Shown here: positions 16,196 through 30,740 of the stretch, piece after piece | How the letters are laid out: every line of letters starts with the position of its first letter | How positions within the stretch are numbered: the stretch's first letter is position 1 | Assembly (NCBI GenBank): GCA_964601505.1 | Contig: CAZRNR010000005.1 | Coordinates: forward strand, 101 to 64,100 | Length of the DNA: 64,000 bases | Direction: 5' to 3' | DNA from: an uncultured bacterium | GTDB taxonomy: Bacteria; Calescibacteriota; Calescibacteriia; Calescibacteriales; Calescibacteriaceae | Notes under the pieces: generated by a model | What the model saw: only the letters and a program-made list of their open reading frames with translations | What the model was told of the DNA's origin: nothing | Database searches by the model: none | Translations under genes and position numbers: made by a program

Positions 16196-16531
16196 TTATC
16201 TTTTATTCATCTTATAAGAAAATCTCTTATATATAGGTACTTGGACCCCATAGACTTCTATTTTTTTGATTAGATCTTCCTTAAGGATATCTTTATTTAT
16301 TTTCTGGATTATTTTTTGCTCGTTTATAGTTATGTAATTTCTCAGTGCTGAGTCATAAAAGCTCATTTTTAGAACTCCTCCTTTGAGAGATATGTTTTTA
16401 GGTTTTGTTTTACCTCCGACTGACTTCCAGTTCTTAACTATTTCAACACAAGCCCAAATCTCTCTATCATAATCTTTCAAAACAGAAGAGATAGAGGATG
16501 AAATATCTTCTATTTTCACTCCTGTTGGCAT
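16196..16531 (-). CDS. DUF721/DciA-like protein
   Basis: 111 aa; IVKNWKSVGG...ISLKGGVLKMSFYDSALRNYI...IIQKIN follows the DUF721 pattern. Confidence 0.5.
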   Translation of the reverse strand: MPTGVKIEDISSSISSVLKDYDREIWACVEIVKNWKSVGGKTKPKNISLKGGVLKMSFYDSALRNYITINEQKIIQKINKDILKEDLIKKIEVYGVQVPIYKRFSYKMNKR

Positions 16532-17636: not shown

Positions 17637-18404
17637 ATGATCACGGTCTTCATACTCATGTTAGCCTTTGATGAGAATTGTTATAATGGAGTCATTACAG
17701 ATTGCTTGAACGCTGCAAAACTATATGAAAAAGAGAAGAACTACGCAAAAAGTATTGAATTTTTAGACGCAGCTTGCATACTCGGAGATGGATATTCATG
17801 TCTAAAGTTATCACACATATATTTAAAAAACCTCTGGGAAAACGTAAGAACGATAGATGATAAAACAAGACACAAAGTTAGTTATGCCTACTCTTTAAGA
17901 GCGTACGAGATTTTAGGTATCGAAAAAGTATATTATGCGTTTTGCAAAGATTTTGAATTATCAAGTGGATGTTTATACCTTAGCAACATATACGGGGAAC
18001 AAGGAAAAACAGAGGAGAGAAACAAACTTCTACAGAAGGCTCATGAAATAGCGTCAAAAGGTTGCACAGCAGGGAAAGGAGAGGATTGCTTTACACTTGG
18101 TATTATGTATTATTACGGCGTGCTTTTGAATAAAGATGAGAAAAAAGCAATAGAGATTTTGCAAAAATCATGCGATCTTAAAATTGCTGGAGCATGCTTT
18201 TATCTTAAAGATATATATGAATCCGGGAACATCATCCCTAAAGATGAAAAAAAGTCGTTTGAATACCTCAAAAAAGCCTGCGAATATTTTGAACCAAATG
18301 CTTGTTATGAACTCTGGAAGAAGAAAAAAAATAAAGAGTATCTCCTAACAGCATGTGATCTTGGACATAAACAATCATGTTCTGAACTGAACACAAAGAA
18401 ATGA
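17637..18404 (+). CDS. Sel1-like repeat protein of the Hcp (cysteine-rich) type
   Basis: Seven repeats, each bracketed by a Cys pair (six C-x7-C and one C-x8-C), with the A/G/Y pattern typical of SLR repeats. Confidence 0.8.
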   Translation: MITVFILMLAFDENCYNGVITDCLNAAKLYEKEKNYAKSIEFLDAACILGDGYSCLKLSHIYLKNLWENVRTIDDKTRHKVSYAYSLRAYEILGIEKVYYAFCKDFELSSGCLYLSNIYGEQGKTEERNKLLQKAHEIASKGCTAGKGEDCFTLGIMYYYGVLLNKDEKKAIEILQKSCDLKIAGACFYLKDIYESGNIIPKDEKKSFEYLKKACEYFEPNACYELWKKKKNKEYLLTACDLGHKQSCSELNTKK

Positions 18405-18702: not shown

Positions 18703-20349
18703 CTATTTCTCCGAGGATATTACCATATACGCTTGATTTTTAAAAAGGATATTCATATCAATTCCTTCATATCTTGCAGATTCTTTGAACATATCTTCAA
18801 ACCTTGCATCTATCAGGACATACTTAGTTTTCCGCAGAAGGAATCTTATTATTTTTAACTTATCTTCTTTTTCACCTCTATGGTATGCAAGTAGGACAAG
18901 CGGAGGATTTGCTTTAGCGCCACTATAGTACCAAAAAGCTATAGGCATAGAGAAGACATAAATTTCATTTTCCAATTTGTTTTGCAAAACGAAATTAACC
19001 ACATCTTTTGTTTCTTTTTCCTTAAAGTATGGCAGATAGTAATCACTTATCTTATACACATCTGAGATACGAAGCAACATAGCTAAAACAAGGATAACCC
19101 ACAAGTCTTTTGCAAAATTTTCTATCTTAAAAAGCACTTTTACAAAGAGGCAGGAGAAAACCGGAAGTATAGTATAGAGCATCTTTGGTACAGCAGGTAT
19201 TATTACATCCAATAAAAGGAACAAGAATAAGCTAACGATTATAAAGATGACCTCAAAACTTTTTGTAAAAAAAATTATTCCGAATATCAAAGTTATAGCG
19301 AGAACAATTGTATTAGCTGTATCAGAGATAAAGTGCAGGTCTGATTTCTGAGATATAAAGCCATAACCTAAGTATATATCTGACAAAGAAAAAGAGCTTT
19401 TTAATTTTACGAATGCTTCTTTGACGAAACAACAACTGGACAAAGTCTGTGATAATCCTTGAAATATTTTTGGGATGATTTTATCTAATGAGAAACCTTC
19501 AACTTTTTGACCGAAGAAATTATATAATTCAGTATAAGCGTTGTAAAATATGCAATCCTTACAAACCTTTTGATAGTGATCTGCCATTTTTTCAGCTAGT
19601 TTTATGTGTATGATGTAAGGGATCAGAAAGGATAAACTTATGATCGATGATAAAAGAACAGCTTTAAGATTTTTTGTTCTGATAATCTGAGTTATGTAAG
19701 CACCAAGAACAAGGTGTATTGAAGGAGCATAAGAGTAAAGAGCAAGTCCACCAAAAATAGAGGAGATCTTATATCTCCCTTCAAGAAGGAATGCGATGAA
19801 CAAATTTAGAAATATAGCAGATTGAAGGTGATGGAACTGAAGAATCAAGGAATAAAATGAAGGAGAAAAGATGATAAATAACAAAAAAAATAGTTTAGTT
19901 ATCTCCTTCCTTATAAAGTTTTGAAAAAGAACGGAAGCCAACTTCAGAGAAGAAAAGAAGTATAAAATAACCATGGAGATAAAGGTTAAAGCTATAGACT
20001 CTGGAATTAATTTGAACCTTCTTAAAGGTTCGGAAATATAATACGTTAGAAAAGGAGTGTAATAGAAAACCCAAGAGATCATTATTTCTTTTCCGAAAAT
20101 GGTGAGTGTAAGATAAGGGAAAAAAGATTTCAGTTTGATTTTAATAAATCCAATATTGAAGACCAACTCTTCCATCTCTTGAGAGTATATAAATTCATCT
20201 TTCTGGAAATCAATACCAAATATCACCGGTGGCCAGACCGAAACAATTCCAACTCCTTCTGAATGCACTGACTGACGCAAATAGATGGAAACAATGATAG
20301 AAAAGGAAAAGCAAATAAAAGCAAATAGAATGTAATGCACCTTTTTCAT
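18703..20349 (-). CDS. Large polytopic membrane protein with a C-terminal soluble domain (GT-C/ArnT-PMT_2-like candidate)
   Basis: 548 aa, more than 10 predicted hydrophobic helices by eye, ~100-aa non-membrane C-terminus. Family assignment is tentative. Confidence 0.4.
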   Translation of the reverse strand: MKKVHYILFAFICFSFSIIVSIYLRQSVHSEGVGIVSVWPPVIFGIDFQKDEFIYSQEMEELVFNIGFIKIKLKSFFPYLTLTIFGKEIMISWVFYYTPFLTYYISEPLRRFKLIPESIALTFISMVILYFFSSLKLASVLFQNFIRKEITKLFFLLFIIFSPSFYSLILQFHHLQSAIFLNLFIAFLLEGRYKISSIFGGLALYSYAPSIHLVLGAYITQIIRTKNLKAVLLSSIISLSFLIPYIIHIKLAEKMADHYQKVCKDCIFYNAYTELYNFFGQKVEGFSLDKIIPKIFQGLSQTLSSCCFVKEAFVKLKSSFSLSDIYLGYGFISQKSDLHFISDTANTIVLAITLIFGIIFFTKSFEVIFIIVSLFLFLLLDVIIPAVPKMLYTILPVFSCLFVKVLFKIENFAKDLWVILVLAMLLRISDVYKISDYYLPYFKEKETKDVVNFVLQNKLENEIYVFSMPIAFWYYSGAKANPPLVLLAYHRGEKEDKLKIIRFLLRKTKYVLIDARFEDMFKESARYEGIDMNILFKNQAYMVISSEK

Positions 20350-20368
20350 GAAAACTTATTAATATCTT

Positions 20369-21448
20369 ATGGTAATGTTCATCGACTTCGTAATGAGCAG
20401 GTTTGGCATCTCAAAAATAACTAGAGACATTCAAAAGATAAATTTCATAATAAAAAAGATATTACCGAAAGACAATCCGGAAATATCTATAAAAAGGTTA
20501 AAAAATCTTTTTCTATCTTTCATAGCATGGAGATACGGCTTTTTTTTAGGTGATATAAAACCGATCATTCTGCAAGTCGAGACGGTAAGCGGATGTAATT
20601 TCAACTGCATAATGTGCAGGGCTGGGAGTCTCAAAAAAGAGTTCATGACCTATGATGAATTTGAGAAAATATTATACAAAATCCCGGAAGCTTTCGTGAT
20701 AATAATGAATCTTGCTGGAGAACCATTTCTGTCTAAAGATACATTGAAATTGATAAGATACGCAAGCCTTGAAAGAAAAGCAATAGTTAATATATTTTCT
20801 AATTTCTCCGTTTTACCAGATCCGTATGAAGTTTTAAATTCAGGACTTTACGAGATACACGCTTCAATAGATACATTTGATCCAATAAAGTTCTCAAAGA
20901 TAAGAGAAGGAGGTAAGCTTGAAAAGGTAATTTCAAATCTTGAAACACTCATCGAAACAAGGAAGAAAATTAAGAAATCACTCCCGATAATAAGCATAAA
21001 CGCTGTTTGTTCTGAAGAAACCATAGAGGATACAGAGGATATAATTTTGAATGCTATAAAAATAGGAGTAGATAGAGTAAAGTTTCAAAGATTATTGTTC
21101 GATATTCCCGAACTGCATCGTCCTTCTCAGAAATCTCAGCAATATCTTCTTTATCTGAAAAAGAAATACAAGGATAAAATAGATGTCATCCTGAACAACT
21201 TTGAAAATATTGGTGATAAATCAGATGGTTATTGTTACCTTGCATACTTTATGTTAGCGATAAAAGTAAACGGGGATGTTTATCCTTGCTGTATGCCTTA
21301 TCCGAATTTCTTTCCTTTTGAGTCAATTATGGGCAATATATTTGCTTCAAACAACTCATGGAATAAAAAAAGAATGGAATTTGTGAGCAATTTCCGAGAT
21401 TCTCCACCAAACTTTTGCCAAATATGTCCGCTATACTATAGAAAATGA
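20369..21448 (+). CDS. Radical SAM protein with Cys-rich (SPASM/twitch-like) C-terminus, paralog A
   Basis: CNFNCIMC (CX3CX2C), GEPFLS SAM-binding motif, C-terminal CYLAY..x14..PCC..x40..CQIC. Confidence 0.8.
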   Translation: MVMFIDFVMSRFGISKITRDIQKINFIIKKILPKDNPEISIKRLKNLFLSFIAWRYGFFLGDIKPIILQVETVSGCNFNCIMCRAGSLKKEFMTYDEFEKILYKIPEAFVIIMNLAGEPFLSKDTLKLIRYASLERKAIVNIFSNFSVLPDPYEVLNSGLYEIHASIDTFDPIKFSKIREGGKLEKVISNLETLIETRKKIKKSLPIISINAVCSEETIEDTEDIILNAIKIGVDRVKFQRLLFDIPELHRPSQKSQQYLLYLKKKYKDKIDVILNNFENIGDKSDGYCYLAYFMLAIKVNGDVYPCCMPYPNFFPFESIMGNIFASNNSWNKKRMEFVSNFRDSPPNFCQICPLYYRK

Positions 21449-22917
21449 AATTAAATCTAGCTTCAGCTTTTTTCATACTTTGCTCACTCCTCATCTTGTA
21501 TCCGAAAAATCTGGAAGAACTTTTCTACTATGATGATAACCCAGTAAGATATGCGATAGCAAAAAAGTGGGTCGAAAACAAGTTAAGCTATGATGAAAAA
21601 ATTCTCTTCCTTGCTTATGGATCTTCTGAGATCTACATACCATTCTTTTACATTGCGAAATTTTTGAACATAAGCTATGAACTCACATACAATCTAGTAT
21701 CTCTGGTACTATTTATCTCCACACTTTTATATGTTATGTCTCTTACAAGAAGAGAAGAGAAAAATTTTTATTTCATAACAGGATTATTTACTCTATTTGG
21801 AATAGTATGTGTCGCGAAAGGTTCTCTACACTGGTTTATAGCATCGAGCATAATTTTTGGCGTGTTATATTCTAAATCTGTAAAAATTTTACACTATGTT
21901 ATGGTCGGATTTTCTTACATAATCTCTCCACCGTCAATAGTACCATCAGTTCTCATATCATTGGCTCTGTTGTTCAATGGAGAAAGAAAAAAATCTATGG
22001 TTTTTATCCTATCACTACCAATGCTTTTGGTGAAAATAGTGTTGGTTCATCCTATAGTTATACTCGATGCGAAAAGATCTTTAGATAGGAATTTTGGAAA
22101 AGACATCATAGATTGGTCACTTAATTCTTTCTGTCCTCCGGATTTGCGTGTATTCATCAGACCGATATTATTAGATTATTTCAAAGCACCCGTTCTCCCA
22201 GCGTTAGTTCTGTACACGATATCAATGAGGGCTATTTTAACGAAAGATAGATTTGCAATTTTATTATTCTCATTTTTCTATGTAACCGCTTTCTTCTCAG
22301 TTTTTATCATCAAATTACAGTTAAAAGGATATGAAATATCAAAGTATTTAGTTTCAATCTTCTCCTTTATTTTCGCGTCGAACCCGTTTAGGCATGTTCC
22401 ACTGCTTATGAGCTATCTCATTATTAAATCTGACCAGAATAAATACGACAAAATATTAACGAAATTTATTCTTGTATCACTATTTTTTTATTCAATATCA
22501 TCTTTGATCAAAGATGAGGGTGAACTACCAACGGGTTTTCCAAAAGAAATAAAAAGTATTATAGAATTCCTTAGGAATTCTGATTCAAAAAACATCCTTT
22601 TTGAAGGAGATATACACACCATACAAAACAATAAATTAATCCATCCGCTTTACAACTCTCACATAATACCATACATATCAGAAGAAGTAGAAGGTAAAAA
22701 ATTTTACGGTGGAATAATTCCGTTGTATTCTAGCAAATACAATTTTTTCGCCGGAAGGTTTAACCTGAAACCCCTTGAAAATTCTGATATACTGGATTTC
22801 ATTGAAGATAAAAAAATAGACATGGTTATCTGCTGGACAGATATCTGTTCAGAATTTTTCAGCTCGAGCTATGAAAAAGAGGAAATAGGGAAATTCAAAA
22901 TCATAAGGTTAAAGTAG
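21445..22917 (+). CDS. Polytopic membrane protein with a C-terminal soluble domain, paralog A (function unknown; GT-C-like layout)
   Basis: 490 aa; YYDDNP acidic motif directly after TM1; ATGA start/stop overlap with radical SAM paralog A. Confidence 0.5.
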   Translation: MKLNLASAFFILCSLLILYPKNLEELFYYDDNPVRYAIAKKWVENKLSYDEKILFLAYGSSEIYIPFFYIAKFLNISYELTYNLVSLVLFISTLLYVMSLTRREEKNFYFITGLFTLFGIVCVAKGSLHWFIASSIIFGVLYSKSVKILHYVMVGFSYIISPPSIVPSVLISLALLFNGERKKSMVFILSLPMLLVKIVLVHPIVILDAKRSLDRNFGKDIIDWSLNSFCPPDLRVFIRPILLDYFKAPVLPALVLYTISMRAILTKDRFAILLFSFFYVTAFFSVFIIKLQLKGYEISKYLVSIFSFIFASNPFRHVPLLMSYLIIKSDQNKYDKILTKFILVSLFFYSISSLIKDEGELPTGFPKEIKSIIEFLRNSDSKNILFEGDIHTIQNNKLIHPLYNSHIIPYISEEVEGKKFYGGIIPLYSSKYNFFAGRFNLKPLENSDILDFIEDKKIDMVICWTDICSEFFSSSYEKEEIGKFKIIRLK

Positions 22918-22998
22918 ATATTAAATCAATATAGAAACATCAAGCAAAAACCAAATTCATACCCAAAATACATTGAGTGAATTAATTATATATAACTA

Positions 22999-24048
22999 AT
23001 GATACTGAAAAGCAAACTCGGAATTTCATTTATTGGAAAAGCAAATATAGAAAGGTTGATTTATATAACTTGCAAGATTTTCCCTCAAGATTCAAAAACA
23101 TTAAAAAGGCTTAAAAATCTATTGCTTTCTCTGATAGCTTGGAGATACGGTATAATTTTAGAAAGTATAAAGCCTGTCATCTTACAGGTTGAAGTTGTAA
23201 GAGGATGCAATTTCAATTGCATAATGTGCAGAGCTGGGGAGCTTGAAAAGGAATTCATGGAATTTGAACAATTCAAAAAAATTTTAGATAAATTTGAAGA
23301 ATCTATAGCATTAATACTCAACCTTGAAGGAGAACCATTTCTGTCAAAAGATATATTGAGGATGATAAACTATGCAAGTGAAAGAAAAAAAATGATAGTA
23401 AGCTTGTTTTCGAATTTTTCAGTAATACCAAAACCAGAAGAGATAATAAGTTCTGGCTTATACGAGATAAATGCATCTATTGATACCTTTGATGCCAAGA
23501 AATTCTCACAATTAAGACAGAATGGAAACCTAAAAATAGTTCTTAAGAATTTATCAGCAGTCATTGAGACGAGAAAGAAAATGGGGAAAAGTATACCTAT
23601 AATAAGCTTGAATGCAACATACTCTAAAGAGAACGCTGAAGATGCAGAAAACATAATTCAAAACTCAATAAATTTAGGTGTAGATAGAGTTAAATTTCAG
23701 AAACTTCTCAAAAACCTCCCCAGAACTCATGTCAAATTAAATATTCCCGGTAAATCAGAAATTGAGCATCTTATAAAGCTGAAGGATAAATATAGAAAAA
23801 AGATAGATGTCATATTGAACAATTTTGAATTCAGCGACCCCAAAGGTTACTGCTATCTTGCGTATCTAATGCAGGTAATAAGAGTGAACGGAGAAACATA
23901 TCCTTGCTGTATGCCGCATCCGTTTTTAGAAAATGGTTCTTTTGGATATCTTCTGAAAGATGAGAACAGAAGAGAAAGATTTATCAGAGATTTTAGAAAG
24001 TCGCCTAAAAAATTTTGTCAGCAATGTGAAATGTATTACAGGAAGTGA
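22999..24048 (+). CDS. Radical SAM protein with Cys-rich C-terminus, paralog B
   Basis: CNFNCIMC, GEPFLS, CYLAY...PCC...CQQC; collinear with paralog A over its full length. Confidence 0.8.
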   Translation: MILKSKLGISFIGKANIERLIYITCKIFPQDSKTLKRLKNLLLSLIAWRYGIILESIKPVILQVEVVRGCNFNCIMCRAGELEKEFMEFEQFKKILDKFEESIALILNLEGEPFLSKDILRMINYASERKKMIVSLFSNFSVIPKPEEIISSGLYEINASIDTFDAKKFSQLRQNGNLKIVLKNLSAVIETRKKMGKSIPIISLNATYSKENAEDAENIIQNSINLGVDRVKFQKLLKNLPRTHVKLNIPGKSEIEHLIKLKDKYRKKIDVILNNFEFSDPKGYCYLAYLMQVIRVNGETYPCCMPHPFLENGSFGYLLKDENRRERFIRDFRKSPKKFCQQCEMYYRK

Positions 24049-25130
24049 AATTTATGGTTAAAAATAAACTGAAAAGGTTTCTAAATAAAATCAAGATGAA
24101 TTGTCTTATCTTTTTAAAAGCATTCCCCCCACAAAAACCAATATTAGCTTCCAAGAGGCTAGAAAACTTTATCAAAACATATATGTCTTGGAAATATGGA
24201 GCCAAGTTTGAAGATTTACAACCGTGTATGATTCAGATAGAGAATGTAAGAGGATGTAATATAAACTGCACCATGTGCAATGCCGGAAACTTTCCCAAAA
24301 TGTTCATTTCCTTTGATCAGTTCAAGAAAACTTTGAACATGTTTCCGAAAACCTTTCTTCTCGCACTTTACTACTGGGGAGAACCATTCTTATCAAGGGA
24401 AACTCTTAAAATTTCAAAATATGCTAGCTTCGAAAAAAATATGCTAGTCAAAACATCCTCAAACTTCACAGTTATACCAGACCCGAAAGAAATCATCGAA
24501 TCGGGAATATATCATATAAAAGCATCAATAGATACATTTGATGAGAAGAAATTTGCTGAAATCAGAAAAAATGGGAATCTAAAAAAGATAACCTCAAACC
24601 TGGAAAATCTGATAAAAACAAAAAATAAAATGAAGAAATTTTTCCCCATAATAAGCATAAATTCCGTAGTCATGGATGAAAACTTGGAAGATCTTGAAGA
24701 CATCGTAAAAAAATCAATAGATCTTGGAGTAGATAGTGTTGAATTTTTGAGATTTCTCGGAATCCCGGGAAAGTCAAATTATGAATACAAAGATAAGAGA
24801 AAGGTTTTCAGTACTCTGAAAAAAATTCAGGAGAAGTATTCTGGTGAGATAGACATACTCATTCATAATTTTGAGAATTTTGGGACATATCAGAATAGAT
24901 TTTGCCACTATGCATATTTTTCAAGTGTTATTGATATATATGGGAACATGTTTTGTCAGTTCTTTATTCTTGATCCTAATTTTCAACCAGAATTATCAGG
25001 ATTTGGCAATATATTCAAATCAGAAGTGAGAGATGTTTTAAGAAGAAGAAATTTTTTCATTTCAGATTTCAGGAAAGGCTCACCCGAACGCTGCAGATAT
25101 TGTCCCCTTGATCTCAGAAGACAACAATGA
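24045..25130 (+). CDS. Radical SAM protein with Cys-rich C-terminus, paralog C (more divergent)
   Basis: CNINCTMC, GEPFLS, C-terminal CHYAY...C...CRYC. The GTG at 24045 overlaps the paralog B stop; an alternative ATG lies at 24054. Confidence 0.75.
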   Translation: MKFMVKNKLKRFLNKIKMNCLIFLKAFPPQKPILASKRLENFIKTYMSWKYGAKFEDLQPCMIQIENVRGCNINCTMCNAGNFPKMFISFDQFKKTLNMFPKTFLLALYYWGEPFLSRETLKISKYASFEKNMLVKTSSNFTVIPDPKEIIESGIYHIKASIDTFDEKKFAEIRKNGNLKKITSNLENLIKTKNKMKKFFPIISINSVVMDENLEDLEDIVKKSIDLGVDSVEFLRFLGIPGKSNYEYKDKRKVFSTLKKIQEKYSGEIDILIHNFENFGTYQNRFCHYAYFSSVIDIYGNMFCQFFILDPNFQPELSGFGNIFKSEVRDVLRRRNFFISDFRKGSPERCRYCPLDLRRQQ

Positions 25131-26620
25131 AAAGATATGCTATAAACTTTATTTTTCTGATTCTCTGCTCCGCGGCTATTTTGTACCCTAAAAACATTAA
25201 AGAACTTTTCTACTACGATGATAACCCGATAAGGTACATGGTAGCAAAAATGTTTGTGGATGGTAGGTTATCCCGAGAAGATAAGATGTTTTTCATATCT
25301 TATGGTTCTTCTGAAATATACCTTCCATTTTTCTTTATAGCCAAGCACATAAAAGCAGAATACCAGATCACATATAATATAGTATCTTTAATTTTTTTCG
25401 TGCTCTGCATATCATATATTTCTTTCATTTTTCGAAAAGATGAGGGAAACTTGAAACTTGTCACATATATTATGACATTACTCGGAATAATATGTGTGAA
25501 AAAAGGTTCAATACACTGGCTTATCTCATCGACAATTTTCCTTTCAACTCTTTTATCAACCAAGCTCTCGATAACTCGGTTCTTACTTATGGGTTTAGCA
25601 TATTTGATATCCCCTACACTAATAATTACCTCAATTATATTTTCCATAATATTTCTGGTTCGAGGAGAAAAGAAAAGAGCTATATTTCTAATCAGCCCAT
25701 TCTTGATAATTCTTCCAAAAACAATAATCATATCTGAAATGACGCTCAATGAAATAAGAGAACTGATATCTCTGGATTCTATAACGAGCAGAAAGATATC
25801 AGAGACGATAAAACCAACTATACCTGCAAGCTTTTATGCTTTTTTAAGATTCTTTTCAGTTGATTATGTTGATAACAAAATTTCTGCCATCCTTATAACA
25901 TACATAATATCCGCAAGGGCTATTTTTCTCACAAAACATAAAAAAGCTTTATTTATCTTTGCGCTGTTCTATATACTGGTTGGATTTTCAATTGCGGCTT
26001 TCAAAATATGGGGGAGTGGATTGAGAACATGGGAAAGTATTATAATCAGTATATTTGGAGTTCTATTTGTCTCAAATCCTTTCAGACATGCTCCTATTAT
26101 CGTCTCATATCTAATCGCCACCTCAGATGTCAATAGATATGATAAAATCATCAACAAAGCAGTCATATTCATACTTGTATTTTGGTCTATAACGAATCTG
26201 ATCAAAGGCAAAGGTGAGCTACCAGAAAAGGTTCCACATGATGTCAAGAACCTCATAGAATTTCTAAATAATTCAGAAATAAAGAACATACTCATAGAAG
26301 GAGATACCCATATTTTGGAAAAATGGAAACTTATCCATCCAATCTATAATTCCCACATTGTATCATACATAGTAGCCGAAACAGAAAACAAGAAATTCTA
26401 TGGTGGTATTATACCTTGGGATTCTTTCAAATTCAATTTTATTGCTGGAAAGTTCAAATCAAAACCCATCCATGAATCAGATATAAAAGACTTCATAAAA
26501 GAAAAAAATATAGATATGGTTGTATGCTGGACAAATAAGTGTAAAAATTTCTTTAGAAATTCAGGAGAGATTGATGAATTTGGATTTTTCTTAGTGGTAA
26601 CGCTTGAAAGACAGAAATAA
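25127..26620 (+). CDS. Polytopic membrane protein with a C-terminal soluble domain, paralog B
   Basis: 497 aa; same YYDDNP motif and the same C-terminal KFYGGIIP...DMV.CWT block as paralog A; ATGA overlap with radical SAM paralog C. Confidence 0.5.
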   Translation: MKRYAINFIFLILCSAAILYPKNIKELFYYDDNPIRYMVAKMFVDGRLSREDKMFFISYGSSEIYLPFFFIAKHIKAEYQITYNIVSLIFFVLCISYISFIFRKDEGNLKLVTYIMTLLGIICVKKGSIHWLISSTIFLSTLLSTKLSITRFLLMGLAYLISPTLIITSIIFSIIFLVRGEKKRAIFLISPFLIILPKTIIISEMTLNEIRELISLDSITSRKISETIKPTIPASFYAFLRFFSVDYVDNKISAILITYIISARAIFLTKHKKALFIFALFYILVGFSIAAFKIWGSGLRTWESIIISIFGVLFVSNPFRHAPIIVSYLIATSDVNRYDKIINKAVIFILVFWSITNLIKGKGELPEKVPHDVKNLIEFLNNSEIKNILIEGDTHILEKWKLIHPIYNSHIVSYIVAETENKKFYGGIIPWDSFKFNFIAGKFKSKPIHESDIKDFIKEKNIDMVVCWTNKCKNFFRNSGEIDEFGFFLVVTLERQK

Positions 26621-27553
26621 TGAGAGAGATTCAAGAACTAGAGCTGTTGTGAGAGCTTCCGAACCATAGGATACACGAAAAAGACTATACAGACCCTCTG
26701 TGAAAAAATCAAAAGAATCCCAACCCTGCTGCTTATTCTGGGTTTCAAGAAGGAAAGAAATCATCTGGTGAAAGTTATTTTTCACTCCAAGAAGAACTGA
26801 CGAAGAAAGAATCAAAGCACAATCAAGAGGATTATTCCAATTAACCTCTTGTAAGTATTTTATCAAAGATTTATGAGGAGAAATTTTAAGCTCAAAATAG
26901 ACCCTAGATAAGAAATAAACAAAAGCCAAAGGAGTTTCATAATACAAACTTCTTATCTTAAAAAGCCCACTATCTATTATTTTTGAAATAAATCTTTCCG
27001 TATCAGGTAGCCTTACACCAAAGAGAGAGAAGAAAAAAAGAATATTTGCATTCACACACCAATCTATATCATTTATCCTTTTCAGATATGGGGCTCCTCT
27101 ATCTTCAATCCAAGTGAAAAAAGAACCATCTTTTCTTTTGTATCTCAGAATATGACATGCTACATCGTAATAGTCAAAATTCACACCAAATCTTCTCAGC
27201 GCAGAAAGACAACACGATGTTGTATCAAGGTCAAAGTGAATATTTGAACCTTTTCCAAAGAATCTAAAGAAACCATCTTCACTTTGAGAATGAATGAAAC
27301 ATATCAACCTATTTATCATGTTAGAAAGAGTAATTTCATCTCCAAGAACGATTCTCACAGCCTTCATAGAATTCAGAATAACAGCATTCGCAAAAACATC
27401 TCTAACATATTCTTTTTGCCAGATTCTTGACTTTATACATCTTGTGCTTAAAAACTCTCCAGAATTAGTCTGGAGAGATGACAAGAAGCCCAAACCCTTT
27501 TTCAATGCAGATATAATATTTTCATAAGATGATATGAAATCAAAAGAATACAT
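26591..27553 (-). CDS. Prenyltransferase/squalene-hopene-cyclase-repeat (alpha-alpha toroid) protein, half-size
   Basis: 320 aa; repeated Q..G.F/W motifs (LQTNSGEF, SQSEDGFF, RKDGSFFTW, QNKQQGWDSF); FDLDTTSCCLSAL resembles the DxDDTA..L.AL cyclase motif. Confidence 0.55.
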   Translation of the reverse strand: MYSFDFISSYENIISALKKGLGFLSSLQTNSGEFLSTRCIKSRIWQKEYVRDVFANAVILNSMKAVRIVLGDEITLSNMINRLICFIHSQSEDGFFRFFGKGSNIHFDLDTTSCCLSALRRFGVNFDYYDVACHILRYKRKDGSFFTWIEDRGAPYLKRINDIDWCVNANILFFFSLFGVRLPDTERFISKIIDSGLFKIRSLYYETPLAFVYFLSRVYFELKISPHKSLIKYLQEVNWNNPLDCALILSSSVLLGVKNNFHQMISFLLETQNKQQGWDSFDFFTEGLYSLFRVSYGSEALTTALVLESLSLFLSFKRYH

Positions 27554-27559
27554 GATCTC

Positions 27560-28339
27560 TCATCTTGAAATAAGTATTAGAATACAGGCATTAGAAAAAA
27601 TTAACCTGTAAAACATCCTATAAAAATTAATATAAGCTCTATTTGCAAATACAATCAAAGATGATATAAGATGAAATATAAAAAGCATTGAGAAAAGTAA
27701 ATTTAGAAAACCTTTATCCATTATATAATACGCAATAATGATATAAGCAACAGAGAAGAAAATAGACGAGATAATAAAAACAAGTTTATCTCCCAAAAAT
27801 ATAGTGATGTTTTTCTGCTTGAGTATTTTATCTTCCTCAACATCTTGTATAAGGTCTATCATATACCCAGCTGTAAAGGCAAAAGAAATAGCAGAAGCAA
27901 GCATAAAAACTTTTAGGGAAAAAATTCCCGGATAACCAGAAAAAAGAGCGCCAAAATAAAATTGCAAAATACCCCCAAGAAAATGAAGGAAAATATCTGC
28001 TATGATTAAAAATCTTCTTGAAAGATAATAAAGAAACCAGTTCAAAAATATAAATGTTGGAAATAGTTTGATATATATATTCTCTCCAAGGAGAATGAAA
28101 GAACTTACAAGTAAAAAACAAAGTGATAACAGAAACCACTTAACTGAGATAAAAAACTCTCCTAGGCTAAAGACTGAAAGTGCGCAGAACAAACTTGATG
28201 TATAGAGAGAAATAACTTCGATAGGATTTGAGACATCAGAATATATAAAATAAGCAAACAAAGGTATACCGGATAAAAAAGATGCTTCAAAGAAGCGCAA
28301 TCTTACCAGAAAATCTACAAAATTTTTTAAAACAAACAC
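27560..28339 (-). CDS. Polytopic membrane protein, divergent UbiA-like prenyltransferase candidate
   Basis: 259 aa, about 8 hydrophobic helices. GYMIDLIQDVEEDK resembles the second Asp-rich motif of UbiA enzymes. No canonical first NDxxDxxxD motif was seen. Confidence 0.35.
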   Translation of the reverse strand: MFVLKNFVDFLVRLRFFEASFLSGIPLFAYFIYSDVSNPIEVISLYTSSLFCALSVFSLGEFFISVKWFLLSLCFLLVSSFILLGENIYIKLFPTFIFLNWFLYYLSRRFLIIADIFLHFLGGILQFYFGALFSGYPGIFSLKVFMLASAISFAFTAGYMIDLIQDVEEDKILKQKNITIFLGDKLVFIISSIFFSVAYIIIAYYIMDKGFLNLLFSMLFIFHLISSLIVFANRAYINFYRMFYRLIFSNACILILISR

Positions 28340-28623: not shown

Positions 28624-30330
28624 GTGGAACCAATTAGAAAAGTAATTAAGCGAGCAAGAAATCGTTCTCAAAGAGAAAAAGGATCAACAAAGTTATTAAA
28701 ATATCTGGATATGCTCAAGAAACAAATAGTTTTGGTGATTCTGTTTTGGTTTTTGGCATACTGTGCAAACGAGCCTGGGGAACAACAGCAAACCAGACAA
28801 CAACAAATTACTCAACAGCAGACTCAAAACATACAACAATCTCCTACTGTCCCAACATACAATCAAGATATAAAACCTATATTTGACCAAAATTGTGTAT
28901 CTTGCCATAGAGCTGGCGGACAAGCTTCATCCTACCCTCTTGACTCATACCAGAATATAATGAACGGAAGAACAAACTGTACCTCTACAACTGAAAAAAG
29001 ATACATCGTTCCTTCAAATTCAAACTCAAGCTATCTTTATAAGAAAATAATAGGCACACAAGATATTTGTGGTGGTAAAATGCCCCCTTCAGGAAACCTT
29101 CCCCAAGACAAAATAGAACTTATCAAAAAATGGATAGATGCTGGAGCACCCGAGTCAACCACAACCAGCGGAGGAACATCTGGTGAATCAGGTAGTGGAT
29201 CAACGTCAGGTGGAAACTCAGGAAGTAGTTCGGATACAACATCTGGAGGCTCAAGTGGCAGTTCTGATGGTATTTCTGATGGAACATCTGGTGGAACTTC
29301 TGGAGGAAGCTCGGGAGGAACATCTGGGAGTTCAAGTGGTGGATCTGGTGGTGGTGGAGGGAAAACACCTCCAGCTGTATTTGGAAAATACATATACACT
29401 GTTTCGGAGGAAGGTAAGATAATAAGGTGGGATGGTAGCAGAAAAGAAATATTCTTTGATATAGGAAGCAATACAAGAATAGTCTCTCCATCAATAGATG
29501 AATACGGAAACCTTTATTTTTCTGCATGGGATGGACATACATACTCCATTGATAATAATGGAAACTTAAGATGGAAGATACACTTTGGAAAATGCGACGG
29601 AGTATCAATACATGATAACATATTTTTCGGATGTGAAAATGGAGTATTCTATGAATTAACAAAGGATGGTTATATAATTCATTCAATCTTTCTTGGTGGT
29701 CCAATTGTTTCAGCTCCCCTAATACTACAAGACGGGAAAGCTGTCATAGGATCGGACAACGGGAAGATATATGAGATCAAAGATGGAAAAGTTCTGAAAT
29801 CTTTTGAAACAAATGGTAAAATAAGAGAAACCCCAGCAATAGACAAGAACAGCAATATATACTTTGGATCATACGACACTTATATCTATTCAATCTCACC
29901 TGATTTCAAAATCAGATGGAAATTCAAAACAGGTGGAGGTATATATTCTGGTTGCTCGCTATGGGAAAAATCAGGTAAAACGGTATGCACGATAGGATCA
30001 AAAGATGGTTATACATACACAGTAGATGAGAACGGGAATCTTGTTTGGAAAGTTCAAACAGGAGATGTTTCCACTGTCCCACTCATAGGAATCAAGAACA
30101 TATATGTCTTATCTGATGATAATGAAATCTTCGCAATATCTAAGGAAGGAATTATAATATCTCGGTATAAAACAGAACCAACATACTATTCATCACCTGC
30201 TATTGCTTTCGGAGAGGTTGTAGTGAGCACAGAACTTGGAGAAATTCTGAAATTCGGTTTTCAAGATGAGCTACTCCCTGGCTGGACAACAGCTCGTGGA
30301 AATTTACAAAGAACAGGAGGATTAAAATAG
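28624..30330 (+). CDS. Fusion protein: N-terminal anchor, heme-c (PSCyt1-like CxxCH) domain, Gly/Ser/Thr linker, PQQ/BamB-like beta-propeller
   Basis: CVSCH...GGKMPP...LIKKWIDAGAP, ~65-aa S/G/T low-complexity stretch, then repeated G.IY/W..DG propeller blades. An alternative start ATG lies at 28711. Confidence 0.65.
   Translation: MEPIRKVIKRARNRSQREKGSTKLLKYLDMLKKQIVLVILFWFLAYCANEPGEQQQTRQQQITQQQTQNIQQSPTVPTYNQDIKPIFDQNCVSCHRAGGQASSYPLDSYQNIMNGRTNCTSTTEKRYIVPSNSNSSYLYKKIIGTQDICGGKMPPSGNLPQDKIELIKKWIDAGAPESTTTSGGTSGESGSGSTSGGNSGSSSDTTSGGSSGSSDGISDGTSGGTSGGSSGGTSGSSSGGSGGGGGKTPPAVFGKYIYTVSEEGKIIRWDGSRKEIFFDIGSNTRIVSPSIDEYGNLYFSAWDGHTYSIDNNGNLRWKIHFGKCDGVSIHDNIFFGCENGVFYELTKDGYIIHSIFLGGPIVSAPLILQDGKAVIGSDNGKIYEIKDGKVLKSFETNGKIRETPAIDKNSNIYFGSYDTYIYSISPDFKIRWKFKTGGGIYSGCSLWEKSGKTVCTIGSKDGYTYTVDENGNLVWKVQTGDVSTVPLIGIKNIYVLSDDNEIFAISKEGIIISRYKTEPTYYSSPAIAFGEVVVSTELGEILKFGFQDELLPGWTTARGNLQRTGGLK
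29154..29360 (+). repeat. Low-complexity Gly/Ser/Thr-coding tract (interdomain linker)
   Basis: Reiterated GGT/GGA/AGT/TCT/TCA-rich codons encoding SGGTSGESGSGSTSGG...GGGGG. It generates spurious antisense ORFs. Confidence 0.9.
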
Positions 30331-30740
30331 TGGGATTTATCAAATCATTTTATCTTTTCTTGGTTTTTCCAATATTCTACCCTAACACGGTTGCTTCAAG
30401 CGAGCTGAATCCGAAAGAAATATATATAAACTACAGATGTGTAAAGTGCCATTCTATGAAAGTTGAAAACATCGAGCCTCTTGAAGAAGAAATTATTAAA
30501 GGTAAAAAGATAGTAGATCATTCTGGAGTTGGTTTAAAATATTCAAACGAATGGATAAAAAGATGGCTACTGAAACAAGAGGAAAAAGATGGCAAAAAAC
30601 ATAAGATAAAATTCAAAGGAACAGAAGAAGAATTAGAAACACTTTCAAAATGGTTAGCTGAGAAGAAAGCAGAAATATCGGAACAAGAACTTAAAGACTG
30701 GTATAGCGAGATAATTAACAGAATAAGAAACAGTAAGTAA
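30330..30740 (+). CDS. Small exported monoheme c-type cytochrome-like protein
   Basis: Signal peptide, single CVKCH motif; GTG start overlaps the upstream stop by 1 nt. Confidence 0.5.
   Translation: MGFIKSFYLFLVFPIFYPNTVASSELNPKEIYINYRCVKCHSMKVENIEPLEEEIIKGKKIVDHSGVGLKYSNEWIKRWLLKQEEKDGKKHKIKFKGTEEELETLSKWLAEKKAEISEQELKDWYSEIINRIRNSK

What the first reader, a model, noticed from the sequence alone, without database searches (positions are those of the whole stretch)
18703..28339. Candidate undescribed system: duplicated radical-SAM + polytopic-membrane-protein modules with prenyl-handling genes
Eight consecutive genes form an accessory-looking block. (1) Three paralogous ~350-aa radical SAM proteins carry CN[FI]NC[IT]MC and GEPFLS motifs. 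Each has a C-terminal Cys set (C..x14..PCC..x40..CxxC in A and B; C..C..CxxC in C) that resembles a reduced SPASM/twitch auxiliary-cluster domain. All three share a conserved ~60-aa basic/amphipathic N-terminal extension (..KRLKNL.LS.IAWRYG..). (2) Two paralogous ~490-aa membrane proteins share an acidic YYDDNP motif right after TM1, a conserved NPFRH motif and a ~140-aa C-terminal soluble domain (KFYGGIIP...DMV.CWT). This layout resembles GT-C glycosyltransferases that use polyprenyl-phosphate-linked donors. (3) Each membrane gene overlaps the preceding radical SAM gene by ATGA (21445-21448 and 25127-25130), and radical SAM genes B and C overlap by GTGA. The order is therefore [rSAM-A|Mem-A][rSAM-B|rSAM-C|Mem-B]. 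(4) A third large membrane protein (18703-20349) is divergently transcribed. (5) A terpene-cyclase-like toroid protein and a UbiA-like membrane protein converge on the block, with a 30-nt 3' overlap at 26591-26620. No short precursor-peptide ORF is present in the 0-81-nt gaps, which argues against a classical RiPP locus. The gene content instead suggests radical modification of a polyprenyl-linked or isoprenoid envelope lipid or glycoconjugate. I cannot match this combination to a described pathway.
Basis: partly seen in the sequence, partly recalled or inferred. Interest (0 to 1): 0.8.

Follow-up and report, generated by a model that had tools for sequence, protein, structure and literature searches.

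The report
Uncharacterised GT-C, UbiA, radical-SAM envelope gene cluster
A hot-spring bacterium (Candidatus Calescibacterium) carries a conserved, undescribed gene cluster that joins three membrane proteins with a lipid-linked-sugar transferase (GT-C) fold to a degenerate UbiA-like protein, a terpene-cyclase-like protein and several radical-SAM enzymes; it most likely builds an unusual cell-envelope modification, but its chemistry is unknown.

Summary
A ninth gene, a Sel1-repeat protein at 17637-18404, belongs to the cluster.

Mem-A has a confident AlphaFold model, and MemX a weak one. For both, the best structural matches are GT-C glycosyltransferases (ArnT, AftD, ALG12, STT3/PglB, DPY19). 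Neither family matches any Pfam or NCBIfam model. An exhaustive profile search of 1.84 billion proteins found only 12 Mem relatives.

The 320-aa protein is a stand-alone class II terpene-cyclase beta domain with the catalytic DxDTT motif aligned to drimenol synthase. It is absent from all other loci. The UbiA-like protein has lost the first Asp-rich motif. The three rSAMs are twitch-type and fall far below every curated family cut-off.

Co-occurrence is real. Mem, MemX, UbiA-like, Sel1 and 3 to 9 or more rSAM paralogs recur across Calescibacterota. Remote Mem homologs elsewhere sit beside a UbiA or a polyprenyl-phosphate-sugar-synthase-type GT2, and beside rSAMs of other subfamilies.

Best model, at about 45% confidence: transfer on the outer face of the membrane of a radical-SAM-modified group from a polyprenyl-phosphate carrier. 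I rate it a new variant of a known kind. The function is untested.

The parts
17637..18404 (+).
   Evidence: Pfam Sel1 46 bits. Homologs at 39-45% identity lie next to the UbiA-like and rSAM genes in L007, L009, L011, L012, L016, L020 and L025-L027.
18703..20349 (-). MemX, a 548-aa polytopic membrane protein with a GT-C fold, transcribed divergently from rSAM-A
   Evidence: No Pfam or NCBIfam hit. Only 6 homolog clusters in 5.8 billion proteins. The AF2 model is weak (pLDDT 59, pTM 0.62), yet the 13 best Foldseek PDB hits are all GT-C enzymes (ALG12 E 3.5e-5, DPY19, STT3, ArnT, PglB, ALG9, all prob 1.00; AftA prob 0.82). It lies next to Mem in L007, L009, L010, L016, L020-L027 and L039.
20369..21448 (+). 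rSAM-A, a twitch/reduced-SPASM radical SAM enzyme (359 aa)
   Evidence: Pfam Radical_SAM 41 bits and SPASM 30 bits. Best NCBIfam is TIGR04317 at 84 bits against a cut-off of 380. Cys at 76/80/83 (CxxxCxxC) and at 289, 307, 308, 350 and 353. Only 39 homolog clusters at E<=1e-10. 64% identical to its L007 ortholog.
21445..22917 (+). Mem-A, a 490-aa membrane protein of a new GT-C-fold family; its start overlaps the rSAM-A stop (ATGA)
   Evidence: AF2 pLDDT 85.8, pTM 0.88. Foldseek PDB: the hits with prob >=0.94 are ArnT, AftD (two entries), ALG12 and a chain of a translocon complex that I take to be STT3; the other hits in the top eight have prob <=0.23. No Pfam, NCBIfam or PDB sequence hit. 14 homolog clusters in 5.8 billion proteins and 12 in the exhaustive profile search. 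Nearly invariant D30/D31 in YYDDNP.
22999..24048 (+). rSAM-B, a paralog of rSAM-A (56% identity)
   Evidence: Pfam Radical_SAM 37 bits, SPASM 21.0 bits against a gathering score of 21.5. TIGR04317 95 bits against a cut-off of 380. Same Cys pattern as A.
24045..25130 (+). rSAM-C, a more divergent paralog (41% to A and to B); the start is either GTG 24045 or ATG 24054
   Evidence: Pfam Radical_SAM 40 bits, no SPASM hit. Only four C-terminal Cys (287, 304, 350, 353). Junction read. Gene callers chose the 358-aa form in L001.
25127..26620 (+). Mem-B, a paralog of Mem-A (45% identity); its start overlaps the rSAM-C stop (ATGA)
   Evidence: Alignment A1. Junction read. Its closest relatives (L010, 47.5%) differ from those of Mem-A, so the duplication is old.
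26591..27553 (-). Stand-alone class II terpene-cyclase beta-domain protein (320 aa) with a DxDTT motif; specific to this species
   Evidence: phmmer against PDB: drimenol synthase 9mhs_B E 1.7e-10 (residues 45-312 against 262-524) and AstC E 4e-4. FDLDTTSCC aligns on AsDMS DDLDTTSMV, which holds the catalytic DxDTT331-335 (PMC9128629). No HAD domain. Absent by tblastn from the eleven other loci searched: L007, L009-L012 and L014-L019.
27560..28339 (-). UbiA-superfamily-like membrane protein (259 aa) lacking the first Asp-rich motif; lies 6 nt upstream of the cyclase gene on the same strand
   Evidence: Pfam UbiA 23.6 bits, below the gathering score of 34.2. Orthologs in L009, L010 and L012 carry precomputed UbiA hits with no weak mark, meaning E<=1e-5. 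Alignments A2 and A4: SS(F/L)xCAxSV stands where canonical members have NDxxD, while DLxxDxEEDK is retained. Profile against PDB gives only chlorophyll synthase at E 0.08.

Best explanation
The block is a conserved envelope-modification cluster built around a previously unrecognised family of GT-C-fold membrane transferases (Mem-A, Mem-B and the separate MemX family). Proposed mechanism: on the cytoplasmic face, a head group, most likely a sugar, is attached to a polyprenyl-phosphate carrier. The UbiA-like protein either makes that donor or holds the carrier. The twitch-type radical SAM enzymes, possibly held at the membrane by their basic N-terminal helix, remodel the lipid-linked group; candidate reactions are oxidation, epimerisation, ring contraction or C-C bond formation. 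After flipping, the GT-C-fold proteins use the acidic YYDDNP loop that follows TM1 to transfer the group on the outer face of the membrane to an envelope acceptor. In sister genomes the likely acceptor is the giant Cys-rich surface protein encoded directly upstream of MemX and Mem. The Sel1-repeat protein would act as an extracytoplasmic adaptor. The stand-alone class II terpene cyclase is a species-specific addition that may cyclise the isoprenoid part. Shown: the folds, motifs, paralogy and gene linkage. Inferred: the donor, the acceptor, every reaction and the order of steps.
For: GT-C fold: for Mem-A (pLDDT 85.8), the Foldseek hits with prob >=0.94 are all GT-C enzymes and the other top-eight hits have prob <=0.23. 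For MemX, the top 13 hits are all GT-C, with E down to 3.5e-5. An acidic motif directly after TM1 is nearly invariant (D30, D31) and is retained as (F/Y)TDD(N/H) in homologs of only 20-24% identity. This is where GT-C enzymes carry their catalytic Asp or Glu (established knowledge of PglB, ArnT, PMT and Emb). Linkage to enzymes that use polyprenyl substrates: a UbiA-family gene is adjacent to or overlaps Mem in L010, L017/L035 and L019, and lies within the cluster in the window, L007/L016, L009, L012 and L025-L027. In L019 a PMT_2 GT-C sits between them. In L036/L037 the place is taken by a 272-aa GT2 whose best matches are PpgS, AglJ and a dolichyl-phosphate hexose transferase. Linkage to rSAMs of different subfamilies: twitch-type arrays in Calescibacterota, two SPASM-type in Elusimicrobiota, a B12-type plus a Tes/TrsS-like rSAM in L018, and a B12-type HpnJ-like rSAM in L036. 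Recurrent coupling through non-orthologous rSAMs points to a shared substrate rather than chance. The precedent for UbiA plus GT-C is the three-component pentofuranose system and mycobacterial DPPRS with Emb/Aft (PMC11127046). No conserved precursor peptide. Translational coupling of rSAM to Mem by ATGA, twice.
Against: No biochemical data exist for any member. TM-scores to GT-C structures are only 0.39-0.48, and the MemX model is of low confidence. The UbiA-like protein has lost the first Asp-rich motif that binds Mg2+ and diphosphate in all characterised UbiA enzymes, and it shows no specific similarity to DPPRS/PPPRS, so it may not make a donor at all. No flippase (GtrA, MATE or MOP), no nucleotide-sugar enzyme and no Leloir glycosyltransferase lies in the window block. 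The closest solved rSAM is SkfB, a peptide thioether synthase. The giant candidate acceptor is absent from the 64-kb window. L010 has Mem, UbiA-like and MemX but no rSAM within 10 kb, so the rSAMs are not obligatory partners.
Confidence: 0.45

Rival explanations
1. Isoprenoid membrane-lipid pathway. The UbiA-like protein, the class II cyclase and the rSAMs build a modified (cyclised, cross-linked or methylated) isoprenoid lipid for a bacterium living near 80 C, in the way Tes, Grs, HpnH and HpnJ act on archaeal lipids and hopanoids. The GT-C-fold proteins add or move its head group. The end product is a lipid, not a glycosylated polymer or protein.
For: UbiA-like and DxDTT cyclase genes are 6 nt apart on one strand. 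L017 and L019 UbiAs score best, though weakly, against archaeal prenyltransferase and DGGGPS-type models and AfUbiA. L018 places a Mem-like gene next to a Tes/TrsS-like rSAM (155-166 bits) and a rSAM that best matches the 'lipid biosynthesis B12-binding' family. GDGT-MAS is among the PDB hits of the rSAM profile. The organism lives at 82-84 C (PMC11696919).
Against: The cyclase is absent from every other locus. All lipid-enzyme similarities are far below the family cut-offs. The L018 genes are convergent on a 5-kb contig. No polyprenyl synthase, GGGP synthase or other lipid gene lies in the block. All characterised GT-C enzymes are glycosyltransferases (established knowledge). The UbiA-like protein lacks the first Asp motif.
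Confidence: 0.2
2. Protein or peptide maturation. The twitch-type rSAMs install thioether or other cross-links in a Cys-rich substrate, such as the giant 2,100-aa surface protein or the Cys-rich Sel1 protein. The membrane proteins glycosylate, export or anchor that substrate.
For: The best solved relative of the rSAM profile is the sactionine-forming SkfB (E 1e-13). PapB, WgkB, StsB and SkfB families appear among the weak NCBIfam hits. The giant protein is 4.7% Cys, with 99 Cys, and sits directly upstream of MemX and Mem in most Calescibacterota loci. The Sel1 protein is also Cys-rich. rSAM paralog arrays could serve many sites.
Against: No conserved short precursor ORF. No RiPP recognition domain was detected by Pfam or NCBIfam, and the N-terminal extension is only about 60 aa. 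A 2,100-aa secreted protein cross-linked in the cytoplasm would be hard to export (inference). The window has no giant protein. This model does not explain the recurring UbiA or GT2 partner. BlsE, viperin, MoaA and BtrN, which act on small molecules, are comparably close.
Confidence: 0.2
3. No system. These are unrelated, lineage-specific genes that happen to be neighbours in a compact genome.
For: The function of every component is unknown. Gene order and rSAM copy number vary among loci.
Against: The same families stay linked at 28-49% protein identity across Calescibacterota. Remote Mem homologs in other lineages, including Elusimicrobiota, again have a UbiA or GT2 plus rSAM neighbours. Start and stop codons overlap twice.
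Confidence: 0.05

Closest known systems
Three-component extracytoplasmic glycosylation systems: UbiA-family polyprenyl phosphoribose synthase + flippase + GT-C (Citrobacter GT136 system; mycobacterial DPPRS Rv3806c with Emb/Aft; also GtrA/GtrB/GtrC) (PMC11127046)
   Same: A UbiA-superfamily membrane protein is encoded with GT-C-fold transferases that carry a C-terminal soluble domain. AftD and AftA are among the structural matches. One remote locus uses a GT2 of the polyprenyl-phosphate sugar synthase type instead.
   Different: No flippase gene. The UbiA-like protein lacks the NDxxD motif mutated in PPPRS and shows no specific similarity to DPPRS. The Mem and MemX families have no sequence similarity to any known GT-C family. 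Three to nine or more radical SAM genes are integral to the cluster, which no described system of this kind has. The cluster is not embedded in a polysaccharide locus.
Radical SAM remodelling of lipid-linked sugars: hopanoid HpnJ (with HpnI and HpnK) and archaeal calditol synthase Cds (from my own knowledge of those pathways)
   Same: Radical SAM enzymes are encoded with glycosyl-transfer functions acting on isoprenoid lipids. The rSAM next to a remote Mem homolog scores best against HpnJ (202 bits).
   Different: HpnJ is a B12-type rSAM, whereas the window's rSAMs are twitch-type. Those pathways use Leloir-type (GT-A or GT-B) transferases, not GT-C. All scores are below the family cut-offs.
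Twitch-domain radical SAM enzymes: SkfB, BtrN, MoaA, BlsE, viperin
   Same: CxxxCxxC core plus a short C-terminal Cys-rich auxiliary domain. The profile matches SkfB at E 1e-13 and the BtrN twitch region at E 8e-4.
   Different: Identity is low. No curated family cut-off is reached; the best is TIGR04317 at 84-95 bits against 380. There is a distinct conserved N-terminal extension of about 60 aa, and the substrates of the solved relatives are too diverse to transfer a function.
HAD-TC-beta drimenol / drimenyl-diphosphate synthases (AsDMS, AstC) (PMC9128629)
   Same: The 320-aa protein aligns over about 265 residues with the TC-beta domain, including the catalytic DxDTT motif.
   Different: It has no HAD domain, which supplies the diphosphate-binding DDxxE in AsDMS. 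It is a stand-alone beta domain next to a UbiA-like gene, and its substrate is unknown.

Membership tests
Radical SAM superfamily (PF04055) | CxxxCxxC cluster motif and a Pfam score above the gathering threshold | tested here: met
   CN[FI]NC[IT]MC in all three. Radical_SAM scores 37-41 bits against a gathering score of 29.5.
SPASM domain (PF13186 / TIGR04085) | Seven-Cys motif binding two auxiliary 4Fe-4S clusters | tested here: not met
   Only 5 C-terminal Cys in A and B, and 4 in C. Pfam SPASM passes in A (30 bits), is borderline in B (21.0 against 21.5) and is absent in C. The region aligns to the BtrN twitch domain, so the fit is twitch or reduced SPASM.
Any curated rSAM equivalog (TIGR04317 W_rSAM_matur, MoaA, AhbD, NirJ, HpnH, Tes, PapB, SkfB, BlsE, anSME and others) | Whole-protein score at or above the NCBIfam cut-off | tested here: not met
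   The best hit is TIGR04317 at 84-95 bits against a cut-off of 380. All others score lower relative to their cut-offs.
GT-C glycosyltransferases | GT-C fold: a polytopic membrane module with a long first external loop, plus a soluble domain | tested here: met
   Foldseek prob 0.94-1.00 to ArnT, AftD, ALG12 and a translocon chain I take to be STT3 for Mem-A, and to ALG12, DPY19, STT3, ArnT, PglB, ALG9 and AftA for MemX. TM-scores are 0.39-0.48, so this is fold-level similarity only, and the MemX model has pLDDT 59.
GT-C glycosyltransferases | Conserved acidic residue(s) in the first external loop after TM1 | tested here: met
   YYDDNP at residues 28-33 follows the TM1 helix (2-18) in the model. 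D30 and D31 are nearly invariant, and the motif is kept as (F/Y)TDD(N/H) in remote homologs. MemX has invariant E31 and D47 after TM1.
GT-C glycosyltransferases | Use of a polyprenyl-phosphate-linked sugar donor | not testable with these tools
   Inferred only from the fold and from the UbiA or GT2 neighbours.
Known GT-C sequence families (PMT_2, GT39, GT83, STT3, Emb/Aft, GT136 and others) | Sequence-profile match | tested here: not met
   No Pfam or NCBIfam hit at E<=0.1. No PDB sequence hit. The exhaustive profile search returns only 12 proteins, all of the same family.
UbiA prenyltransferase superfamily (PF01040) | Pfam score above the gathering threshold | tested here: inconclusive
   The window protein scores 23.6 bits against 34.2. 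Orthologs in L009, L010 and L012 carry precomputed UbiA hits with no weak mark, meaning E<=1e-5. These are homologous, but the window protein is very divergent.
UbiA prenyltransferase superfamily (PF01040) | Two Asp-rich motifs (NDxxDxxxD and DxxxD) that bind Mg2+ and diphosphate | tested here: not met
   The first motif is replaced by SS(F/L)xCAxSV in all Calescibacterium members, while L017, L019 and the canonical L010 UbiA retain ND...D. The second motif, DLxxDxEEDK, is retained.
Three-component pentofuranose glycosylation system (PPPRS + flippase + GT-C) | A PPPRS/DPPRS-type synthase and a dedicated flippase encoded with the GT-C | tested here: not met
   No similarity to DPPRS (8j8j) in PDB searches. 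No MATE, GtrA or MOP protein in the block. Only the GT-C component is met, and only at fold level.
Class II terpene cyclase (TC-beta domain) | Homology to a TC-beta domain with the catalytic DxDD or DxDTT motif | tested here: met
   E 1.7e-10 to AsDMS residues 262-524. DLDTT is aligned on DxDTT331-335. PMC9128629 shows that the middle Asp is essential.
Bifunctional drimenol synthase (HAD-TC-beta) | N-terminal HAD-like domain with DDxxE | tested here: not met
   The protein is 320 aa, and the match covers only the C-domain of AsDMS. No HAD hit in Pfam.
RiPP biosynthetic cluster with an rSAM maturase | A precursor peptide gene and a recognition (RRE) domain | tested here: not met
   No small intergenic ORF is conserved between loci; all cross-locus hits have E>=0.008. 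No RRE or PqqD hit.

The most novel reading that the evidence does not exclude
Mem and MemX are founding members of new GT-C-fold families whose real partners are radical SAM enzymes. Together they make and export a radical-derived head group, for example a carbocyclic or C-C-linked pseudo-sugar, or a cyclised isoprenoid unit, carried on a polyprenyl lipid. The expanded rSAM arrays (9 or more paralogs in some genomes) would each install a different modification on a heat-stable surface layer. This would be a new class of envelope chemistry that couples cytoplasmic radical SAM catalysis to GT-C transfer outside the cytoplasm.
Probability: 0.2. Interest if true: 0.85.

Novelty: new variant of a known kind. 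Interest (0 to 1): 0.62.

Why it matters
GT-C enzymes build the key surface structures of bacteria, archaea and eukaryotes, including N-glycans, arabinogalactan and lipid A modifications. New GT-C families are rare. Here two sequence-orphan GT-C-fold families are repeatedly encoded next to radical SAM enzymes of several different subfamilies, and next to enzymes related to those that charge polyprenyl carriers. I found no described pathway that couples these chemistries. If the link is functional, it points to an unknown envelope modification in deep-branching hyperthermophilic bacteria, possibly a heat-stable one. It would also add a new substrate class for twitch-type radical SAM enzymes and supply a marker set (Mem + UbiA or GT2 + rSAM) for finding related systems. 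The practical limit is that every host is uncultured, so testing needs heterologous expression of thermophile membrane proteins.

Tried and rejected
1. Mem-cyclase fusion. P0066 (866 aa) is a Mem protein with a 330-aa C-terminal extension containing 'DFDDTS'. I tested it as a Mem-terpene-cyclase fusion. BLASTP against the window cyclase gave a best E of about 0.9, and phmmer against the PDB gave nothing. Rejected.

2. Mem and MemX as distant paralogs. hhalign gave 3.9% probability, with only a faint C-terminal alignment. Not shown. They share a fold class, not detectable sequence homology.

3. Sequence searches of the Mem and MemX profiles against the PDB found nothing. Only structure comparison revealed the GT-C fold.

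4. The first genome-contig scan, with a single protein, found nothing. The alignment-based scan worked.

5. Precursor-peptide search. The first all-ORF comparison was swamped by shadow ORFs inside conserved genes. Restricted to intergenic ORFs, it found no conserved peptide.

6. The UbiA-like protein as a DPPRS/PPPRS ortholog is not supported.

7. The window rSAMs as anSME (a sulfatase gene lies 12 kb upstream), MqnC/MqnE, HpnH, Tes or AhbD: all below cut-offs or absent from the hit lists.

8. Horizontal-transfer island: G+C is no different from the flanks, and the flanks are core genes.

9. Literature searches for the gene combination or for Calescamantes radical SAM enzymes returned nothing relevant.

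The MemX model was therefore built from only 6 sequences and is of low confidence.

Full report
**1. What is in the sequence**

| Gene | Coordinates | Strand | Length |
|---|---|---|---|
| MemX | 18703-20349 | - | 548 aa |
| rSAM-A | 20369-21448 | + | 359 aa |
| Mem-A | 21445-22917 | + | 490 aa |
| rSAM-B | 22999-24048 | + | 349 aa |
| rSAM-C | 24045-25130 | + | 361 aa |
| Mem-B | 25127-26620 | + | 497 aa |
| 320-aa protein | 26591-27553 | - | 320 aa |
| UbiA-like | 27560-28339 | - | 259 aa |

The two ATGA start/stop overlaps (21445, 25127) and the GTGA at 24045 were read directly. For rSAM-C an in-frame ATG at 24054 is an equally good start, and it is the one used by gene callers on identical metagenome contigs.

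Mem-A and Mem-B are 45% identical. The rSAMs are 56% (A/B) and 41% (A/C and B/C) identical.

G+C of the block (0.31-0.33) does not stand out from the window (0.31-0.38). The flanks are core genes: GyrA, Ddl, RapZ, GlyQ, MoaA, ribosomal protein S2, Sua5 and YchF. This is a chromosomal cluster, not an island.

**2. Source**

Identical copies occur on hot-spring metagenome contigs. Homologs carry NCBI names of Candidatus Calescibacterium, of the phylum Calescamantes/Calescibacterota. A Calescibacterium MAG from Octopus Spring (82-84 C) has 33.7% G+C, matching the window (PMC11696919).

**3. The membrane proteins**

Mem-A, Mem-B and MemX have no Pfam or NCBIfam hit at E<=0.1, and their profiles match no PDB sequence. 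The families are tiny:

- Mem has 14 clusters among 5.8 billion proteins.
- A word-free HMMER profile search of 1.84 billion representatives found only 12 Mem relatives.
- MemX has 6 clusters.

An AlphaFold2 model of Mem-A built on 15 homologs is confident (pLDDT 85.8, pTM 0.88). In Foldseek against the PDB, the matches with probability 0.94-1.00 are ArnT, AftD (two entries), ALG12 and a chain of a translocon complex that I take to be STT3. Every other hit in the top eight has probability 0.23 or less. Pmt4 follows lower down at 0.57.

The MemX model is weak (pLDDT 59), yet its 13 best matches are again all GT-C enzymes: ALG12 at E 3.5e-5, then DPY19, STT3, ArnT, PglB, ALG9 and AftA. TM-scores are 0.36-0.48, so this is a fold-level assignment.

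Two sequence features agree with it.

- A nearly invariant acidic motif (YYDDNP, D30/D31) follows TM1 at the start of a long helix-containing loop. It is kept as (F/Y)TDD(N/H) in homologs that are only 20-24% identical.
- There is a C-terminal soluble alpha/beta domain with invariant or nearly invariant E387, H391, H400, H406, C463 and W464.

Mem and MemX are not detectably related to each other by sequence (hhalign probability 3.9%). The block therefore encodes three GT-C-fold proteins from two orphan families.

**4. The radical SAM proteins**

All three pass Pfam Radical_SAM. SPASM passes in A, is borderline in B and is absent in C. Only 4-5 Cys follow the core (C-x17-CC-x~40-CxxC), and the region aligns to the BtrN twitch domain.

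No curated family is reached. The best is TIGR04317 at 84-95 bits against a cut-off of 380.

A 16-sequence profile finds these solved relatives: SkfB (E 1e-13), BlsE, viperin, GDGT-MAS, MoaA and BtrN. Their substrates range from peptide to sugar, nucleotide and lipid, so homology does not fix the substrate.

The basic N-terminal extension of about 60 aa is conserved in all 17 Calescibacterium paralogs aligned. Those paralogs fall into about three clades, and the window's three all belong to one clade.

**5. The two convergent genes**

The 320-aa protein matches the class II cyclase (TC-beta) domain of solved bacterial drimenol synthases at E 1.7e-10 over residues 45-312, and matches AstC more weakly. 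Its FDLDTTSCC aligns exactly on the catalytic DxDTT331-335 of AsDMS. The middle Asp of that motif is essential (PMC9128629). The protein lacks the HAD domain of those enzymes. tblastn does not find it in any of the eleven other loci searched, so it is a species-specific addition.

The 259-aa protein is a very divergent UbiA-superfamily member (23.6 bits against a gathering score of 34.2). Its orthologs in other loci carry stronger UbiA hits. In every Calescibacterium locus the first Asp-rich motif is replaced by SS(F/L)xCAxSV, while DLxxDxEEDK is kept. The UbiA partners of remote Mem homologs retain ND...D. No search shows specific similarity to the mycobacterial DPPRS.

**6. Conservation of the neighbourhood**

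Within Calescibacterota I found two locus types.

- Type 1: Giant (about 2,100 aa), MemX and Mem on one strand, followed by five rSAMs, sometimes a Big_2 protein and a methyltransferase, then UbiA-like, Sel1 and one more rSAM.
- Type 2: a Mem gene embedded in tandem arrays of rSAM paralogs. L029 has seven upstream, alternating between two clades, and two downstream.

The window is a compact variant: Sel1, MemX, [rSAM-A, Mem-A], [rSAM-B, rSAM-C, Mem-B], then the cyclase and UbiA-like genes. It has no Giant within 64 kb.

The giant protein has a signal anchor, a C-terminal TM helix with a basic tail, 99 Cys (4.7%) and no Pfam domain.

L010, from an unclassified MAG, has Mem overlapping UbiA-like, with MemX beside them and no rSAM within 10 kb.

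Remote Mem homologs outside this group show related neighbourhoods:

| Locus | Arrangement |
|---|---|
| L017/L035 (Elusimicrobiota MAG) | UbiA (70 bits), Mem-like, SPASM rSAM, rSAM |
| L019 | UbiA, PMT_2 GT-C, Mem-like |
| L036/L037 | Mem-like, B12-rSAM (best match HpnJ, 202 bits), GT2 whose best matches are PpgS, AglJ and a dolichyl-phosphate hexose transferase |
| L018 | Mem-like next to a B12-rSAM and a Tes/TrsS-like rSAM |
| L039 | MemX homolog divergent from an 866-aa Mem |

All these family scores are below the curated cut-offs, so they indicate type, not identity.

The Mem family is thus repeatedly linked to two kinds of partner: (i) an enzyme of a type that acts on polyprenyl carriers, and (ii) radical SAM enzymes that are not orthologous between lineages. 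That pattern is hard to explain by chance or by shared ancestry of an operon.

**7. Mechanism**

The best-supported reading is a variant of extracytoplasmic glycosylation. In that scheme a polyprenyl-phosphate-linked donor is made in the cytoplasm, flipped, and used by a GT-C enzyme outside. Examples are the three-component systems and mycobacterial DPPRS with Emb/Aft (PMC11127046).

In the variant proposed here, twitch-type rSAMs remodel the lipid-linked group before transfer. The giant surface protein is a likely acceptor in sister genomes.

The fold, motifs and linkage are shown. The donor, the acceptor and all reactions are inferred.

The weak points of this reading are:

- the degenerate UbiA-like protein;
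- the missing flippase and sugar-activation genes;
- the low TM-scores;
- SkfB being the closest solved rSAM.

I give this model 0.45. The rivals are:

- an isoprenoid membrane-lipid pathway (0.20), supported by the UbiA-like/cyclase pair and by lipid-type rSAM neighbours in L018, and weakened by the cyclase being non-core;
- maturation of a Cys-rich protein or peptide (0.20), supported by SkfB similarity and the Cys-rich giant and Sel1 proteins, and weakened by the lack of a precursor or RRE and by the UbiA/GT2 partners;
- no system at all (0.05).

The remaining 0.10 is left for explanations I have not thought of.

**8. Comparison with what is known, and novelty**

The cluster works most like a three-component GT-C glycosylation system, but it fails the membership tests: there is no PPPRS-type synthase, no flippase, and no match to a known GT-C sequence family. 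It fails the RiPP tests as well.

No paper in the searchable library describes rSAM + UbiA + GT-C together, or this cluster in Calescamantes.

I classify it as a new variant of a known kind: two sequence-orphan GT-C-fold families coupled to radical SAM enzymes.

The rSAMs are in no characterised family. The membrane proteins are not ordinary Wzy, ligase or known GT-C members in a polysaccharide locus. The genes do co-occur elsewhere.

**9. Verdict**

The function is unresolved. Interest 0.62.

Noticed in passing
L009:1915-8289 (also L007:16723-21506 and L020-L027): A giant (2,124 aa) protein with no Pfam domain lies directly upstream of MemX and Mem in most Calescibacterota loci. It has an N-terminal signal anchor, a C-terminal TM helix with a basic tail, 4.7% Cys (99 residues, densest at 965-1340) and 11% Gly. 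There is no homolog in the 64-kb window.
   Followed up: partly
L029:1-11000 (also L030-L034): A second locus type in which one Mem gene is flanked by tandem arrays of at least 9 twitch-type radical SAM paralogs, alternating between two clades. This is an unusually large local rSAM expansion.
   Followed up: partly
window 28624-30330 and 30330-30740: A 568-aa fusion of a c-type cytochrome domain, a Gly/Ser/Thr-rich linker of about 70 aa and a PQQ/BamB-like beta-propeller. It is followed by a 136-aa CxxCH protein whose start abuts its stop. The pair is not conserved next to the cluster in other species.
   Followed up: no
window 5912-7204: A sulfatase-family protein lies 12 kb upstream of the block. 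The block's rSAMs do not hit the anSME family, so no link is shown.
   Followed up: partly
L011:8761-9750: An IS element (HTH_32 plus a DDE_3 transposase) is inserted inside the rSAM array of one Calescibacterota locus.
   Followed up: no
L012:5189-5356 (-): A 55-aa ORF duplicates the N-terminus of the UbiA-like protein (MMSLVRNFDLDALKKSVFQALFLSGI...). It is probably a gene fragment left by a rearrangement.
   Followed up: no
L023:912-5120: Two MemX genes in tandem upstream of Mem.
   Followed up: no
P0016 and P0075 (NCBI MAG labelled Thermoplasmata archaeon): These proteins are 68-69% identical to the window's rSAM-A and MemX, yet are deposited under an archaeal MAG name. The contig is probably mis-binned.
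   Followed up: no
P0066 / L039:7865-10465: An 866-aa Mem homolog with a C-terminal extension of about 330 aa and unknown fold. It contains DFDDTS but shows no detectable similarity to the window cyclase or to any PDB entry.
   Followed up: yes
window 16196-16531: A 111-aa protein with a weak DciA-like hit (17.9 bits, below the cut-off), lying between RapZ and the GldG-like ABC auxiliary genes.
   Followed up: no
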